This document shows positions 6,656 through 63,393 of a DNA stretch of 64,000 nt, piece by piece. Source of the DNA: an uncultured Methanosarcinales archaeon (GTDB taxonomy: Archaea > Nanobdellota > Nanobdellia > Woesearchaeales > GW2011-AR4); assembly GCA_964650285.1 (NCBI GenBank), contig CAZYSP010000003.1, positions 6,364-70,363 on the forward strand, read 5' to 3'. The notes under the pieces are model-generated. The model was not told where the DNA came from. It made no database searches and saw only the letters and a program-made list of their open reading frames with translations. The translations under genes were made by a program, and so were the position numbers. Position 1 is the stretch's first letter. Every line of letters begins with the position of its first letter.

Positions 6656-6796
6656 TGCGTCGGCCGGGACTTTCACCAATCTTTCCGAAGGAAAGCCTGA
6701 TTTTGGTCAAGCTTTTGCGCGTAAGCGGAAAAGATTGTTTTGAACCCGGATAGCGGGCTTGGAAGGCCCGAGTCATAGCCATTAGACCACCGACGC
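6656..6796 (-). tRNA. tRNA-Gly(UCC) with a 69-nt intron at T-loop position 59/60
   Basis: Minus strand: acceptor GCGTCGG/CCGACGC. D-arm GTCT-AATGGCTA-TGAC. Anticodon arm CGGGC-CTTCCAA-GCCCG. T-stem CCGGG + TTCAAA | intron | T + CCCGG, discriminator A. Intron ends pair (CAATCTTT/AAAGATTG) and it contains a UUCG hairpin. Confidence 0.65.
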
Positions 6797-52286: not shown

Positions 52287-52439
52287 GGGGCTATAGTGTA
52301 GCTTGGTCTATCATTCCAGATCGGGGTAACCCAATTCGTAGAGTATCTGTTAAAGAGTCTGTGAAACGGAAATCTGGCGACCCGTGTTCAAATTGCTGCA
52401 TGGTCGACACCTTCGGCATTGAAATTCACGGTAGCCCCA
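52287..52439 (+). tRNA. tRNA, isotype undetermined, with two introns (~45 nt in the anticodon region, 33 nt at T-loop 59/60)
   Basis: GGGGCTA-TA-GTGT-AGCTTGGTCTA-TCAT-T-CCAGA...TCTGG-CGAC-CCGTG-TTCAAA|33 nt|T-CACGG-TAGCCCC-A. The D-arm resembles the Asp/Glu type. Confidence 0.45.
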
Positions 52440-56969: not shown

Positions 56970-58739
56970 TTATTCCAACACAGCCTTAATCCTTCTTATT
57001 CCAGCAGCAGAGCTTTCTTCTTTTATTATTTTAAATTTGCCAAGTTCATTGGTATTTTTAACATGAGGTCCGCCGCATATTTCTGTTGAAAAATTTTCTA
57101 TTGAATAAACAGAGACTCTTTCAGCATATTTATGCTCAAAGACTCCCTGTGCATTCTTCTTTTTTGCCTCTTCTAAAGTCATTTCTTCCTTTTTAACTTG
57201 CAACCCGGCTTTTATTTTTTCATTAACAATGTCTTTTATCTTTTTTATTTCTCCTTCGCTTAGTTTTCTGTCAAAATTAAAGTCAAACCTTAATCTTTCC
57301 GGAGTTATGTTAGAGCCTTTCTGGATTATTTTATCATCTTTTAAAACTCTTCTTAATGCTTCATTTAACAAATGGGTAACTGTATGTAATTTTTTTGTTT
57401 GTTCGGAGCTATCAGCTAAGCCTCCTTTAAAGCGCTTTTCTGCTCCTGCCCTTGAAAGCTTTTGATGTTTTTTGAATTCTTTCTCAAAACCTTTTTTATC
57501 TACTTTGATTCCTTTTTCTTCTGCTAATTCTTCTACCATTTCTAATGGAAAGCCGTATGATTGGAATAAAAGGAAAGCTTCTTTTCCTGATATTTTTTTG
57601 TCATTTGCCATCCTTTCAAACTTACGAAGGCCTTTCTCAAGTGTTGCTCTGAATTTTTCATCTTCTTTTTTTAGTTCATTTAAGATGAAATTTTTGTTTT
57701 TTTCTAACTCATTATAATCTCCTTTATGAAGGTTGATAACTATTTTTGCCAATTCTGTTACAAATTCTTTTTCTATACCTAATAACTTTCCATGCCTTAT
57801 GGAGCGTCTTATGAATCTCCTTAGAATGTAACCTTGGTCTAGATTTGATGGTACTATCCCTAGATCGTCTCCTAAAATGAATATTGCTGCCCTTATATGG
57901 TCTGTTATTATTCTTATTGAGAGTTCTTGTTTCTCGTTAGGATTATCTATTTTTGCTAGTTCTTTTATTTTTTCTACTATTGGAGTAAAGGTTTCTATTT
58001 CATATACTGTTTTTTTGCCTTGAAGTGTTGCTATAGTTCTTTCAACACCCATTCCAGTATCAACGGTTTTTTGTTTAAAGGGAATGTATTTTCCCTCTTT
58101 TGTTTTATTGTATTGTATAAAGACATCATTCCAAATCTCAAAATATTTTCCGCAACTACATCCTGGCTTACAATCTTTACTGCATTTTTCTTTTCCAGTA
58201 TCATAAAACATTTCAGTATCTGGACCGCATGGACCTGTTGAACCAGCAGGACCCCACCAGTTATCTTTTTTTGGCAGATAAAAAATTCTTTTTTTTGGAA
58301 TTCCTAAGCTTTTCCATATTTTTGCTGATTCCTCATCTCTTGGAGCATCTTTGTCTCCTTTAAAAACAGTAATATACAGCTTGTTTTTATCCAAACCAAG
58401 CCATTTTTTTGATGTTAAGAACTCAAAGCTCCATTCAATTGCTTCTTTTTTCCAGTAATCTCCCAAAGACCAGTTACCAAGCATCTCAAAAAATGTTAAG
58501 TGGGAAGGATCTCCTATCTCATCTATATCCCCTGTTCTGATGCATTTTTGAACATCAACTAAACGCTTGCCAGCAGGATGACTTTCTCCCATTATGTATG
58601 GAACAAGAGGGTGCATACCCGCAGTTGTAAATAAAACAGTTGGATCGTGTTCAGGAATTAAAGAAGCAGAGTTAATCAATTTATGCCTCTTTTCAATAAA
58701 AAATTCAAAATATTTTTTTTTAAAATCTTTGGCTTTCAT
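56970..58739 (-). CDS. alaS: alanyl-tRNA synthetase lacking the C-terminal C-Ala domain
   Basis: TTAGM...QKCIR...HLTFFEMLGNWSLGDY catalytic core, HLLNEALRRVL and CGGPHV editing motifs. Ends about 35 aa after CGGPHV. Start is trimmed to MKAKDF so it does not overlap tRNA-Glu. Confidence 0.85.
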   Translation of the reverse strand: MKAKDFKKKYFEFFIEKRHKLINSASLIPEHDPTVLFTTAGMHPLVPYIMGESHPAGKRLVDVQKCIRTGDIDEIGDPSHLTFFEMLGNWSLGDYWKKEAIEWSFEFLTSKKWLGLDKNKLYITVFKGDKDAPRDEESAKIWKSLGIPKKRIFYLPKKDNWWGPAGSTGPCGPDTEMFYDTGKEKCSKDCKPGCSCGKYFEIWNDVFIQYNKTKEGKYIPFKQKTVDTGMGVERTIATLQGKKTVYEIETFTPIVEKIKELAKIDNPNEKQELSIRIITDHIRAAIFILGDDLGIVPSNLDQGYILRRFIRRSIRHGKLLGIEKEFVTELAKIVINLHKGDYNELEKNKNFILNELKKEDEKFRATLEKGLRKFERMANDKKISGKEAFLLFQSYGFPLEMVEELAEEKGIKVDKKGFEKEFKKHQKLSRAGAEKRFKGGLADSSEQTKKLHTVTHLLNEALRRVLKDDKIIQKGSNITPERLRFDFNFDRKLSEGEIKKIKDIVNEKIKAGLQVKKEEMTLEEAKKKNAQGVFEHKYAERVSVYSIENFSTEICGGPHVKNTNELGKFKIIKEESSAAGIRRIKAVLE

Positions 58740-58793
58740 GATTTGAATAAGGATGGGTTTATTTAAAAAGTTTGCTTTAAAAATAAATAGAAA

Positions 58794-58868
58794 TGCTCCC
58801 AACGGGATTCGAACCCGTGTCTCGGCCTCGAGAAGGCCGAATGATTGGCCGGGCTACACCATGGGAGC
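58794..58868 (-). tRNA. tRNA-Glu(CUC)
   Basis: GCTCCCA-TG-GTGT-AGCCCGGCCAA-TCAT-T-CGGCC-TTCTCGA-GGCCG-AGAC-ACGGG-TTCGAAT-CCCGT-TGGGAGC-A. 75 nt, no intron. Confidence 0.8.
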
Positions 58869-58883
58869 ATAGAAAATAAAAAA

Positions 58884-59047
58884 TGGGCCCGGAGGGATTT
58901 GAACCCCTGACCTAAAGCCAAGACATTTTATCTTTCCGGCTGGCTTAGCTCTCTAATGGCTAAAACATTTGTACCATTAGTGGTCATATAAGACCGGCGC
59001 TTTTGTCTAAGCTTGTAGCTTATCTAACCAGGCTGAGCTACGGGCCC
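58884..59047 (-). tRNA. tRNA-like locus (164 nt), canonical ends and T-arm, interior interrupted, probably by two introns; isotype unresolved
   Basis: GGGCCCG-TA-GCTC-AGCCTGGTTAGA... then ...AGGGG-TTCAAAT-CCCTC-CGGGCCC-A. TTAGA occurs twice, 73 nt apart, suggesting a D-arm intron. An AAGCC/GGCTT helix flanks a 22-nt segment in the anticodon region. Confidence 0.45.
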
Positions 59048-59097: not shown

Positions 59098-59181
59098 TGC
59101 GGCAGCCGAGATTCGAACTCGGGTCCCAGCCTTTTTACAATGTTTGGCAAGGCCGGATCTTAACCACTGGACTACTGCCGC
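59098..59181 (-). tRNA. tRNA-Gly(GCC) with 12-nt canonical intron
   Basis: GCGGCAG-TA-GTCC-AGTGGTTA-AGAT-C-CGGCC-TTGCCA[12 nt]A-GGCTG-GGAC-CCGAG-TTCGAAT-CTCGG-CTGCCGC-A. Confidence 0.7.
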
Positions 59182-59212
59182 ATAAAAATTAGTTTATCTA
59201 AAATAAAAATGG

Positions 59213-59389
59213 TGGGCCCGACCAGACTTTCATCAGCTTTTCTGATTTTGCAAAGCAAAATCCTAGGTGAATGACCAAAGGGAAGTTCACCGCATTTTCC
59301 CAGGTTTTTTGCGTGAGCAAAAAAGCTGTTTTGAACTGGTGACCTACTCGGTGTAAACGAGTTATCATACCGGGCTAGACCACGGGCCC
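59213..59389 (-). tRNA. tRNA-Val(UAC) with a 103-nt intron at T-loop position 59/60; CCA encoded
   Basis: GGGCCCG-TG-GTCT-AGCCCGGTA-TGAT-A-ACTCG-TTTACAC-CGAGT-AGGTC-ACCAG-TTCAAA|103 nt|T-CTGGT-CGGGCCC-ACCA. Intron ends pair (CAGCTTTT/AAAAGCTG). Confidence 0.65.
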
Positions 59390-59476
59390 ATAATGTTACT
59401 AACAGAAAATTAAAGCATATAAAAATGTTTTGTTGCCATTAAATTTAAATACAACCATCACTTAAAGAATAACTAA

Positions 59477-61692: not shown

Positions 61693-63393
61693 ATGTTCAA
61701 CTTTTTAAAAGACAAGTTAAAAGGAGCTATCTCAAAGTTCTCCAAAAAGGTAGAGGAAGAAACCAAAGTAGAAGAACCCATAGAAAAAGAAACAAAAGAG
61801 GAAGTTATAGAACAAAAAGAAGAGTCAAGACCTGTAGAGGGACCAAAAGAGGAAATTAAAGAAGCAGAAGAATCTCGGAAAATAATATCTTCTTTACCAA
61901 TGACAAGAGCCGAAGCACTAGAGCTCGTCAAAAAATACAACAAAGATCCATCTGATTTAAACCACTACCTGGAAAGCGAAGCAATTATGAAAGCTCTCGC
62001 AAAAAAACTTGGAGAAGATGAAGAATATTGGGCTATGCTTGGATTACTTCATGATGTTGATTGGGGCATAACAAAAGATGATGCTAAAAAACACTTAACT
62101 AAAGCTCCTGAAATACTTGAACAAGCAGGATTTGATAATAGCTTCATCAACATTGTTCTCTCTCATGGCTATGGATTTAATTGCGCTGGACTAAAAGACA
62201 AACAAAGAACTCAAAAAATTGAGTATGCACTTGCATGCTCTGAAACAATCACAGGCCTTATTCATGCCTATGCTTTAATGAAGGGTTCAATAGACGATAT
62301 GGAACCAAAAGGCCTGAAAAAGAAATTTAAAGACAAAGGTTTTGCAGCCGCAGTCAATAGGGACATAATAAGAGAATGCGAAAAACTAGGCTTAGAACTA
62401 TCTGAATTTTTTAGCTTGGCAATTGATGCTGTAAAAAGCATTGCGTCAGAAGTTGGTTTAGCGAAAGAACAGCCCAGAGAAGAAGAGAAACCACTAGAAG
62501 AAATAAAGGAAGAAGAAAAAGGCTTTTTTGGAAAACTAAAGGAAAAAATAGTCACAACAAAGATTTCATATGACAAATTTGAAAATTTATTTTCTGACCT
62601 GGAACTGACACTAATGGAAAACAATGTTGCTATGGAAGTTATAGAAAAGATAAAATCAGATCTAGGGCAAAATTTGATAGAAAAACCAATAAAAAGAACA
62701 AAAATAGAGGAAACAATAAGGGAGTCATTAAAAAATTCAGTAAAAGATTTATTTGATATTGATAAAATAAATTTATTGGAAAAAATAAGAAAAGAAGAAA
62801 AGCCATTTGTTATTGCATTTTTTGGAGTTAATGGATCTGGAAAAACAACAACAATAGCAAAGATTGCAGATTTATTAAACAAAAACAAAATTTCTTGTGT
62901 ACTGGCAGCTTCTGACACCTTCCGTGCAGCTTCTATAGAGCAATTACAAATTCATGCAGACAGATTGAGAATTAAATTAATAAAGCATGGTTATGGCTCT
63001 GACCCGGCAGCAGTTGCTTTTGATGCAGTAAAGCACGCAAAAGCAAAAAACATTGATGTTGTTTTAATAGACACAGCAGGAAGATTGCACAGCAACGTTA
63101 ACCTTATGGACGAGCTCAAAAAAGTTGTTAAAGTAGCTAAACCTGATCTAAACATTTTTGTCGGAGAAAGTATTGCAGGTAACGATTGCGTTGAGCAGGC
63201 AAAAACCTTTAATGAAGCAGTTGGTATTGATGGTATAATTTTAGCTAAAGCTGATATCGACGAGAAAGGTGGTGCAGCTATTTCTGTAAGTTACGTTACA
63301 AAAAAACCCATAATATATCTTGGAATGGGCCAGGAATATTCTGATTTAAAAGAATTTGAGCCTAATTTAATTGTAGAAGGTTTGGGGATTTAA
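61693..63393 (+). CDS. ftsY: signal recognition particle receptor FtsY with N-terminal acidic region and an HD-domain-like insertion
   Basis: C-terminal NG domain (GVNGSGKTTT, DTAGR, LAKADID). Residues ~60-250 carry an H..HD..H..H..D pattern (LNHYL, LLHDVDW, LSHGYG, LIHAYA, SIDD). GGTG ribosome-binding site at 61682-61685. Confidence 0.85.
   Translation: MFNFLKDKLKGAISKFSKKVEEETKVEEPIEKETKEEVIEQKEESRPVEGPKEEIKEAEESRKIISSLPMTRAEALELVKKYNKDPSDLNHYLESEAIMKALAKKLGEDEEYWAMLGLLHDVDWGITKDDAKKHLTKAPEILEQAGFDNSFINIVLSHGYGFNCAGLKDKQRTQKIEYALACSETITGLIHAYALMKGSIDDMEPKGLKKKFKDKGFAAAVNRDIIRECEKLGLELSEFFSLAIDAVKSIASEVGLAKEQPREEEKPLEEIKEEEKGFFGKLKEKIVTTKISYDKFENLFSDLELTLMENNVAMEVIEKIKSDLGQNLIEKPIKRTKIEETIRESLKNSVKDLFDIDKINLLEKIRKEEKPFVIAFFGVNGSGKTTTIAKIADLLNKNKISCVLAASDTFRAASIEQLQIHADRLRIKLIKHGYGSDPAAVAFDAVKHAKAKNIDVVLIDTAGRLHSNVNLMDELKKVVKVAKPDLNIFVGESIAGNDCVEQAKTFNEAVGIDGIILAKADIDEKGGAAISVSYVTKKPIIYLGMGQEYSDLKEFEPNLIVEGLGI

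What the first reader, a model, noticed from the sequence alone, without database searches (positions are those of the whole stretch)
59213..59389. tRNA-Val(UAC) split by a 103-nt intron inside the T-loop (position 59/60)
The locus folds as a complete Val tRNA on the minus strand. Acceptor, D-arm, an uninterrupted anticodon arm ACTCG-TTTACAC-CGAGT, variable loop and T-stem 5' half are followed by TTCAAA. Then come 103 nt before the final T60 and the T-stem 3' half CTGGT, acceptor CGGGCCC, discriminator A and an encoded CCA. The two intron ends are mutually complementary (CAGCTTTT/AAAAGCTG), as expected if they form the helix of a bulge-helix-bulge splicing motif. Introns at 59/60 are a rare non-canonical class, and one this long in the T-loop is unusual.
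Basis: seen in the sequence. Interest (0 to 1): 0.6.

Follow-up and report, generated by a model that had tools for sequence, protein, structure and literature searches.

The report
tRNA-Val gene with T-loop intron
A valine tRNA gene of an uncultured marine DPANN (Woesearchaeota-like) archaeon is interrupted in its T-loop by a 103-base intron of the usual archaeal bulge-helix-bulge type. Nearly the same intron sits at the same spot in many other tRNA genes of related archaea, and standard tRNA finders miss these genes.

Summary
Window 59213-59389 (minus strand) is a 60-nt 5' exon, a 103-nt insert and a 14-nt 3' exon, followed by an encoded CCA. ARAGORN calls a 74-nt tRNA-Val(UAC) only after the 103 nt are removed.

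The unconstrained minimum-energy (MFE) fold gives the T-stem, a 4-bp helix (T-loop U54-A57 with intron UGAA), two 3-nt bulges holding the predicted cut sites, and an outer intron helix (CAGCUUUU/AAAAGCUG).

- The complementary intron ends form the outer helix, not the central one.
- Position 59/60 is a recognised recurrent site. An ARMAN-2 (another DPANN archaeon) 59/60 intron has been cleaved in vitro.

In this window, 3 of 6 tRNA genes carry a T-loop intron.

The new result concerns the intron family. I found 21 homologous introns of 35-201 nt, all at 59/60, in hosts that include Val, Ile, Ser, Ala and Pro tRNAs. Four further T-loop introns, including those in tRNA-Gly(UCC), are unrelated in sequence. 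The window intron is 90-92% identical to introns in tRNA-Ser and tRNA-Ala, whose exons are only 47-64% identical to this tRNA-Val. Internal helices show compensatory changes.

This is a new member of a known kind. The family resembles the intron transposition described in Thermoproteales. Splicing itself is inferred, not shown.

The parts
59210..59389 (-). Complete tRNA-Val(UAC) gene including the encoded CCA (59210-59212)
   Evidence: Read. ARAGORN calls tRNA-Val(tac), 74 nt, after the intron is removed.
59330..59389 (-). 5' exon, 60 nt: acceptor 5' strand, D-arm, anticodon arm (UAC), variable loop, T-stem 5' strand, T-loop nucleotides 54-59 (UUCAAA)
59227..59329 (-). 103-nt intron at tRNA position 59/60
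   Evidence: It is 89-92% identical to the introns in L126 (Val), L129 (Ser-GGA) and L087 (Ala-CGC).
59213..59226 (-). 3' exon, 14 nt: U60, T-stem 3' strand CUGGU, acceptor 3' strand CGGGCCC, discriminator A73
59332..59335 (-). Central BHB helix, exon strand: U54 U55 C56 A57
   Evidence: Paired with intron UGAA in the MFE fold and in the consensus fold. L047 carries UUCG/CGAA instead; that pairing was required by my filter, so it is not independent evidence.
59329..59331 (-). 5' bulge A58 A59 | A (intron nt 1); predicted 5' cleavage site between 59330 and 59329
   Evidence: Unpaired. AAA in 24 of 25 T-loop introns. The cut position is inferred from the BHB rule.
59321..59328 (-). Outer intron helix (h'/P1), 5' strand CAGCUUUU
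   Evidence: In one search this helix is 93% paired across 20 sequences and 6 of 8 pairs show changes on both sides. My filter did not require this helix.
59234..59241 (-). Outer intron helix (h'/P1), 3' strand AAAAGCUG
59233..59233 (-). Extra unpaired purine between P1 and the central helix. It is a departure from the strict BHB motif.
   Evidence: A in 14 and G in 7 of 21 family members at that offset.
59229..59232 (-). Central BHB helix, intron strand UGAA
59226..59228 (-). 3' bulge A G | U60; predicted 3' cleavage site between 59227 and 59226
   Evidence: AGU in 22 of 25 introns.
59305..59324 (-). Intron hairpin 1: UUUUUUGC-UCAC-GCAAAAAA
   Evidence: Alignment A1; two pairs show compensatory changes.
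59262..59304 (-). Conserved inner domain: CCUGGGAAAAUGC, then hairpin GGUGAAC...(G)UUCACC, then UAGG
   Evidence: Conserved in L087, L126, L129, L026, L199 and L191. Three of the 7 hairpin pairs show changes on both sides.
59245..59261 (-). Intron hairpin 2: AUUUUGC-UUU-GCAAAAU
59417..59425 (-). TATA-like UUUUUAUAU, 28-36 nt upstream of G1; possible archaeal promoter
   Evidence: Read. This is an inference only.

Best explanation
This is a working tRNA-Val(UAC) gene of a marine DPANN (Woesearchaeota-like) archaeon, interrupted by a protein-spliced BHB intron at position 59/60.

Proposed mechanism. In the precursor, the T-stem stacks on a 4-bp helix made of the nearly universal T-loop bases U54-A57 and the intron's UGAA. 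Two 3-nt bulges flank this helix, and an 8-11 bp intron helix closes the motif. The archaeal splicing endonuclease (EndA) would cut after the second base of each bulge. The RtcB-type ligase would join the exons to give the T-loop UUCAAAU, and would probably circularise the intron.

Why 59/60. It is the geometric twin of the canonical 37/38 site: the stem ends at 53 (or 31), four paired bases follow, then two bulged bases.

Why one intron fits many tRNAs. The exon half of the motif is only a T-stem plus the conserved T-loop. The same intron therefore needs no adaptation to its host tRNA. This explains why one intron family, with ends ACAGCUUUUU...AAAAGCUGRUGAAAG, sits at 59/60 in at least nine different tRNA species of related archaea. 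That distribution implies spread between tRNA genes.

Shown here: the sequence, the folds, the conservation and the covariation. Inferred: cleavage, ligation, circularisation, and the route by which the intron spreads.
For: The exact spliced product is a canonical tRNA-Val.

The BHB appears in the unconstrained MFE fold of the precursor and in 21 of 25 MFE folds of T-arm-plus-intron sequences from related loci. It is also the RNAalifold consensus.

Pair counts:
- Junction alignment A2: 96.8% paired, against 83% for shuffles and at most 62% for slid controls. The outer helix, which I did not select for, is 93% paired and 6 of 8 pairs change on both sides.
- Long-form alignment A1: 96.7% paired, against 88% for shuffles and at most 50% for slid controls.

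Orthologous tRNA-Val(UAC) genes carry the intron at the same site with lengths of 42, 104, 144 and 201 nt.

The window intron is 92% identical to the intron in L129 tRNA-Ser(GGA) and 90% to that in L087 tRNA-Ala(CGC). The exons are only 47% and 64% identical.

All 21 occurrences of the intron's 3' motif in 1.38 Mb of fetched loci are followed directly by a T-stem 3' strand and an acceptor 3' strand.

The organism is archaeal, of DPANN type (AlaRS relatives; prefoldin and related genes).

Literature:
- 59/60 is a known intron position (PMC4090602).
- An ARMAN-2 59/60 intron was cleaved in vitro (PMC3239211).
- DPANN lineages, including Woesearchaeota and Pacearchaeota, have heavily disrupted tRNA genes and EndA with an extra loop (PMC5829648).
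Against: - There are no expression or splicing data for this locus.
- No EndA gene was found in the window. The test was weak: a tblastn search with a Methanocaldococcus EndA sequence written from memory.
- The motif is not strictly canonical, because one extra unpaired purine lies opposite the 5' bulge.
- T-stem and central-helix pairing were conditions of my own filter. Their 100% pairing is therefore not independent evidence.
- The metagenome sample was drawn with a pattern that fixes the 5' junction and the first 10 intron bases. This inflates the apparent uniformity of the family.
- I did not check whether the genome has a second, intron-free tRNA-Val(UAC).
Confidence: 0.85

Rival explanations
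1. The excised intron is itself a functional RNA. It would be a stable, probably circular, roughly 100-nt structured RNA acting in trans, or binding a protein. Its high conservation would then reflect selection on that function, not recent spread or splicing needs alone.
For: The intron is more conserved than its host exons across different tRNAs. The inner hairpin keeps its pairing through compensatory changes. An unpaired CCUGGGAAAA(U)GC stretch is conserved. Precedent: the tRNA-Trp intron that carries a box C/D guide RNA (reference list of PMC4090602).
Against: Short 35-47-nt members lack the whole inner domain, yet sit in apparently intact tRNA genes, so the domain is dispensable for the host gene. 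There is no Rfam match. There is no C/D box pair. The UGAUGA at the 3' end is part of the BHB and reads UGGUGA in about a third of members. Only nine long-form sequences were compared.
Confidence: 0.25
2. The gene is a pseudogene, a tRNA-Val inactivated by insertion of a small repeat-like element. The apparent BHB is incidental and there is no splicing.
For: The long-form intron has two near-identical hairpins and inverted-repeat-like ends around its inner domain, which recalls a miniature insertion element. No expression data exist.
Against: The exons are intact and 95-96% identical in the orthologues L126 and L199, while the intron differs by substitutions and a 40-nt insertion. The BHB is kept in 21 of 25 MFE folds. 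The element is only ever found at 59/60 of otherwise intact tRNA genes. Three of the six tRNA genes in this window would have to be dead.
Confidence: 0.04
3. The insert is an assembly or chimera artefact.
For: None, beyond the metagenomic origin of the sequence.
Against: An identical 180-nt locus occurs in three independent assemblies from JGI, NCBI and ENA. Homologous introns occur in more than 20 other contigs.
Confidence: 0.01

Closest known systems
[quoted passage not shown]
   Same: A DPANN archaeon, the same insertion site in the T-loop, and a BHB-type motif. The tRNA-Cys intron was cleaved in vitro by the organism's EndA.
   Different: Those introns are short, and the Cys one has a relaxed hBH motif. 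No conserved multi-tRNA family or structured core was reported. The intron here is 103 nt with both bulges and an outer helix, and the host lineage is Woesearchaeota-like rather than Micrarchaeota.
Transposed intron families of Thermoproteales (Fujishima et al. 2010, as summarised in PMC4033280 and PMC4090602)
   Same: Very similar intron sequences occur in tRNA genes of different identity, implying transfer of introns between genes.
   Different: Those families are in TACK archaea and, as summarised, occupy both canonical and non-canonical positions. The family here was seen only at 59/60, is in DPANN, and varies in length from 35 to 201 nt through a modular middle part.
Canonical archaeal 37/38 BHB intron
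   Same: The same 3-4-3 bulge-helix-bulge geometry stacked on a 5-bp stem that closes a 7-nt loop. 59/60 is the T-arm equivalent of 37/38. The enzymes are presumably the same.
   Different: The central helix uses T-loop bases instead of anticodon-loop bases, so the intron does not have to match each tRNA's anticodon.
Euryarchaeal tRNA-Trp intron carrying a box C/D guide RNA (cited in PMC4090602)
   Same: A long (about 100 nt), conserved, structured intron in an archaeal tRNA gene.
   Different: No C/D box pair or K-turn could be found here, there is no Rfam hit, and the intron is in the T-loop rather than the anticodon loop.

Membership tests
Archaeal BHB (hBHBh') tRNA intron | Two 3-nt bulges on opposite strands, separated by a 4-bp helix | tested here: met
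   The MFE fold, the consensus fold and 21 of 25 related loci show it. One extra unpaired purine lies opposite the 5' bulge, so the motif is slightly relaxed.
Archaeal BHB (hBHBh') tRNA intron | Flanking helices on both sides: h (exon side) and h' (intron side) | tested here: met
   h is the T-stem. h' is CAGCUUUU/AAAAGCUG, which is 93% paired, with 6 of 8 pairs changing on both sides.
Archaeal BHB (hBHBh') tRNA intron | Removal at the bulge sites restores a canonical cloverleaf tRNA | tested here: met
   ARAGORN calls tRNA-Val(tac), 74 nt, with T-loop UUCAAAU.
Archaeal BHB (hBHBh') tRNA intron | The host is an archaeon that encodes splicing endonuclease EndA and an RNA ligase | tested here: inconclusive
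   Archaeal DPANN origin is supported. EndA was not found in the 64-kb window by a weak test. EndA in Woesearchaeota and Pacearchaeota is reported in PMC5829648.
Archaeal BHB (hBHBh') tRNA intron | The intron is actually excised and the exons are ligated | not testable with these tools
   This needs RNA data or an enzyme assay.
Transposed or shared intron family (Thermoproteales type) | Closely similar intron sequences in tRNA genes of different identity | tested here: met
   Introns are 90-92% identical between Val, Ser(GGA) and Ala(CGC) hosts, whose exons are 47-64% identical. Family hosts parsed: Val, Ile, Ser(GGA), Ser(GCU), Pro, Ala(CGC), Ala(GGC). Four further family hosts have other acceptor stems and were not parsed.
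Intron-encoded box C/D sRNA (tRNA-Trp type) | C box (RUGAUGA) and D box (CUGA) that can form a K-turn, plus guide sequences | tested here: not met
   The only UGAUGA is part of the BHB and reads UGGUGA in about a third of members. There is no separate D box. The best Rfam C/D hit has E = 9.8.
Group I or group II self-splicing intron | A catalytic core detectable by covariance models; a size of hundreds of nucleotides | tested here: not met
   There is no Rfam match at E <= 1 in the window, and the intron is only 103 nt.
Split or permuted tRNA gene | The tRNA halves are encoded apart or in reversed order | tested here: not met
   Both exons are contiguous, in order, and on one strand.

The most novel reading that the evidence does not exclude
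The ACAGC...GCUGRUGAAAG element would be a mobile, self-contained structured RNA specialised for the T-loop. It docks on the universal UUCA of any tRNA through its UGAA. It spreads between tRNA genes, for example by reverse splicing or by recombination. After excision it persists as a circular RNA with a conserved multi-helix core that has a function of its own, or that promotes its own spread. If so, it would be the first BHB intron family with a recognisable 'portable' design, and a usable system for the open question of how archaeal tRNA introns are gained.
Probability: 0.25. Interest if true: 0.75.

Novelty: new member of a known kind. Interest (0 to 1): 0.45.

Why it matters
Practical. 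T-loop introns of 13-201 nt hide tRNA genes from standard finders. In this window ARAGORN and Rfam miss three of six tRNA genes outright, and a fourth falls just below threshold. This fits the published remark that DPANN genomes seem to lack full tRNA sets because of undetected disrupted genes (PMC5829648). A model of this intron family would help recover them.

Conceptual. One intron sequence is kept at 90% identity across tRNA genes of different identity, always at 59/60. This is a clean case for studying how protein-spliced introns spread. It also suggests why 59/60 recurs: it mirrors the canonical site, and the exon half of the motif is the same in every tRNA.

Tried and rejected
- ARAGORN and Rfam on the unspliced locus found nothing. 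Rfam at permissive E-values sees only the 5' part, at 18 bits.
- My first three scans for T-loop introns were far too loose and returned mostly noise. A stricter filter gave the usable set.
- About 80% of the metagenome hits to GTTCAAAACAGCTTTTT were chance matches outside tRNA genes.
- A scan of viral contigs for the intron's 3' motif gave 19 hits. All were chance matches in coding-like context, with no tRNA 3' half.
- A tblastn search for EndA in the window, using a Methanocaldococcus sequence written from memory, gave no credible hit. This is a weak test and is not evidence of absence.
- Box C/D RNA, group I intron, split tRNA, nested second BHB and assembly artefact were each considered and rejected (see the membership table and the rival explanations).
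- ARAGORN with intron search misplaces canonical introns. For example, it called Val genes 'Ser(tga)'. I therefore parsed anticodons by cloverleaf geometry instead.
- The papers by Sugahara 2008 and Fujishima 2010 are not in the held library. They are cited only through reviews.
- AlaRS-anchored loci from reference genomes rarely keep the tRNA cluster; only L015 and L026 do. Synteny therefore gave few orthologues.

Full report
**1. What is in the sequence**

On the minus strand, 59389-59213 reads as follows:
- GGGCCCG (acceptor 5' strand), UG, a D-arm.
- ACUCG-UUUACAC-CGAGU (anticodon arm, anticodon UAC).
- AGGUC, ACCAG (T-stem 5' strand), UUCAAA.
- 103 further bases.
- U, CUGGU (T-stem 3' strand), CGGGCCC (acceptor 3' strand), A.

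CCA (59212-59210) and a T-run follow. The 5' exon is 59330-59389, the insert is 59227-59329 and the 3' exon is 59213-59226.

ARAGORN finds no gene in the 177-nt sequence. It calls a 74-nt tRNA-Val(tac) once the 103 bases are removed. ARAGORN and Rfam at gathering threshold both miss the locus in the window.

The identical 180 nt occur in three independently assembled metagenome contigs.

**2. [quoted passage not shown]

Yes. The unconstrained MFE fold of the precursor (z = -3.28 against shuffles) contains:
- the acceptor stem and the T-stem;
- directly stacked on the T-stem, four pairs between U54-A57 (UUCA) and intron UGAA;
- a 3-nt bulge A58 A59 A(intron nt 1);
- a long intron helix beginning CAGCUUUU/AAAAGCUG;
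- a second 3-nt bulge A G U60.

Cutting after the second base of each bulge gives the T-loop UUCAAAU. This is the rule for archaeal BHB motifs, taken from established knowledge. The intron-free T-arm of the neighbouring tRNA-Ile has the same T-loop.

One unpaired purine lies between the outer helix and the central helix, so the motif is slightly relaxed.

The position has a simple geometric reading, which is my inference. The stem ends at 53, four paired bases and two bulged bases bring the cut to 59/60, and the 3' cut lies one base before the stem resumes at 61. Replacing 53 with 31 gives the canonical 37/38. So 59/60 is the T-arm twin of the canonical site.

**3. Who carries it**

The neighbouring genes are ScpA, PRPP synthetase, prefoldin, an FtsY with an HD domain, and AlaRS. 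The AlaRS is closest, at 65-78% identity, to MAGs labelled Woesearchaeota, Nanoarchaeota, Pacearchaeota and Aenigmarchaeota. The identical ScpA protein occurs in marine metagenomes, including TARA. Window GC is 33%. The host is therefore a marine DPANN archaeon of the Woesearchaeota type.

**4. The window is full of interrupted tRNA genes**

I identified six tRNA genes, and together they carry eight inserts:

| Gene | Coordinates | Inserts | Evidence |
|---|---|---|---|
| Glu(CUC) | 58793-58869 | none | |
| Ile(UAU) | 58884-59047 | three: D-stem, 37/38, variable loop | Rfam 28.1 bits, just under threshold; ARAGORN calls it only after all three are removed |
| Gly(GCC) | 59098-59181 | 12-nt canonical intron | |
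| Val(UAC) | 59213-59389 | 103-nt T-loop intron | this finding |
| Gly(UCC) | 6656-6796, minus | 69-nt T-loop intron | |
| unresolved | 52287-52439, plus | 33-nt T-loop intron and about 45 extra nt in the anticodon region | |

The three genes with T-loop introns are invisible to ARAGORN and to Rfam, even at E <= 1.

**5. Relatives of the intron**

BLAST of the intron against AlaRS-anchored genome loci found homologous sequence in L026 and twice in L015. Reading them showed the following:
- tRNA-Val(UAC) with a 201-nt T-loop intron (L026).
- tRNA-Val(UAC) with a 42-nt T-loop intron (L015).
- tRNA-Ile(UAU) with a 41-nt T-loop intron (L015).

A metagenome scan with the 5' junction GTTCAAAACAGCTTTTT returned mostly chance hits. 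After filtering for a T-stem, an acceptor stem and the central helix, it yielded 25 distinct T-loop introns. Of these, 21 belong to one family that starts ACAGC and ends ...AAAAGCUG-R-UGAA-AG. Their lengths run from 35 to 201 nt.

Family hosts parsed by cloverleaf geometry are Val(UAC), Ile(UAU), Ser(GGA), Ser(GCU), Pro(CGG), Ala(CGC) and Ala(GGC). Four further family hosts have other acceptor stems that I could not parse. The four T-loop introns outside the family sit in two tRNA-Gly(UCC) genes, a tRNA-Ser(CGA) and the unresolved tRNA at 52287.

The window intron is 92% identical to the intron of a tRNA-Ser(GGA) (L129) and 90% to that of a tRNA-Ala(CGC) (L087). The exons are 47% and 64% identical.

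All 21 occurrences of the 3' motif in 1.38 Mb of fetched DNA are followed at once by a T-stem 3' strand and an acceptor 3' strand. The family is therefore specific to position 59/60.

tRNA genes of different amino-acid identity diverged long before these organisms did. A 90%-identical intron in several of them therefore implies transfer of the intron between genes. The same inference was drawn for Thermoproteales (Fujishima 2010, via PMC4033280 and PMC4090602).

**6. Structure support**

- RNAalifold on nine long-form introns with T-arm flanks returns the T-stem, the central helix, both bulges, the outer helix, two hairpins and an inner hairpin GGUGAAC/GUUCACC.
- On that alignment, 96.7% of cells are paired, against 88% for shuffles and at most 50% for slid controls. 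The inner hairpin has three pairs with changes on both sides.
- On a 20-sequence junction alignment, 96.8% are paired, against 83% for shuffles and at most 62% for slid controls.
- In the same alignment the outer helix is 93% paired, with six of eight pairs changing on both sides. Those changes come largely from unrelated T-loop introns, for example CAAUCUUU/AAAGAUUG in the window's tRNA-Gly(UCC).
- L047 has T-loop UUCG paired with intron CGAA.
- 21 of 25 MFE folds of T-arm plus intron show the full motif.

Two caveats apply. T-stem and central-helix pairing were conditions of my filter, so only the outer and inner helices are independent evidence. The metagenome pattern also fixed the first ten intron bases.

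**7. Anatomy of the family**

Long forms (99-201 nt) contain, in order:
- hairpin UUUUUGC-loop-GCAAAAA;
- a conserved CCUGGGAAAA(U)GC stretch;
- a variable hairpin;
- CCUAGG;
- a second, near-identical hairpin AUUUUGC-loop-GCAAAAU;
- the 3' strand of the outer helix.

Extra hairpins are inserted at two points in the longest members. Short forms (35-47 nt) have a single hairpin and no inner domain. They look like deletions between the two repeated hairpins, or the long forms look like insertions into the short ones. I cannot tell which.

The inner domain is therefore not needed by the host gene. It matches no Rfam family. It has no C/D box pair.

**8. Mechanism**

The most likely course of events, at about 0.85 confidence for the splicing part, is:
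1. Transcription, possibly from the TATA-like UUUUUAUAU at 59417-59425 (inference).
2. Folding into the BHB.
3. Cleavage by EndA.
4. Ligation by the RNA ligase, with the intron released, probably as a circle.

None of these steps is shown for this locus. Precedents are the in vitro cleavage of a 59/60 intron in ARMAN-2 (PMC3239211), the listing of 59/60 among recurrent sites (PMC4090602), and the report of heavily disrupted tRNA genes with a modified EndA in DPANN (PMC5829648).

The exon half of the motif is only a T-stem plus the near-universal UUCA. The intron can therefore work in any tRNA. I propose this as the reason one family populates many tRNA genes.

Three things remain open: why the long form is so well conserved, whether the excised RNA does anything, and how the intron moves. 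Protection of tRNA genes against integrating elements has been suggested for disrupted tRNA genes in general (Randau and Söll, cited in PMC4033280). It was not tested here.

**9. Verdict**

- which helix is which;
- 59/60 is not rare;
- 103 nt is mid-range for this family.

The item itself is a new member of a known kind. The family-level result raises its interest to moderate: one intron at one site in many tRNAs, more conserved than its hosts, and hidden from standard tools. It also gives a concrete system for studying how BHB introns are gained.

Noticed in passing
window 58884-59047 (-): tRNA-Ile(UAU) gene with three inserts: about 22 nt inside the D-stem 3' strand, 45 nt at 37/38, and about 22 nt in the variable loop. 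ARAGORN calls tRNA-Ile(tat) only after all three are removed. Rfam scores the unspliced gene at 28.1 bits, just under its threshold of 29. The orthologue in L015 has instead a canonical intron plus a T-loop intron.
   Followed up: partly
window 6656-6796 (-): tRNA-Gly(UCC) with a 69-nt T-loop (59/60) intron of a different sequence family (ACAAUCUUUUCC...GGAAAGAUUGGUGAAAG) but the same BHB layout. The orthologues in L040 and L047 have 30-nt and 13-nt introns at the same site.
   Followed up: partly
window 52287-52439 (+): A further tRNA gene missed by all finders. It has a 33-nt T-loop intron plus about 45 extra nt in the anticodon region. Its identity is unresolved: Pro(GGG) with an unusual C33, or Ser(GGA), depending on where the second intron is cut.
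   Followed up: partly
window 61693-63393 (+): An FtsY/SRP54-type GTPase with an N-terminal HD-domain fusion (566 aa).
   Followed up: no
window 56970-58739 (-): The AlaRS is a short 589-aa form. After DPANN archaea, its next-closest relatives in reference genomes are Spirochaetia, at 59-61% identity over the full length. This hints at transfer between domains.
   Followed up: no
L156 1048-1500; L015 1056-2472: Single short contigs carry two members of the same intron family in neighbouring tRNA genes of different identity. Examples are Ile(UAU) with 123 nt next to a tRNA with a GCUCCCA acceptor stem (identity not parsed) and 41 nt, and Val with 42 nt next to Ile with 41 nt. This is consistent with spread within a genome.
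   Followed up: partly
L026 583-783; L199; L191; L089: The longest family members (144-201 nt) carry extra hairpin modules inserted at two fixed points of the intron: after hairpin 1 and after CCUGGGA. The origin of these modules is unknown.
   Followed up: no
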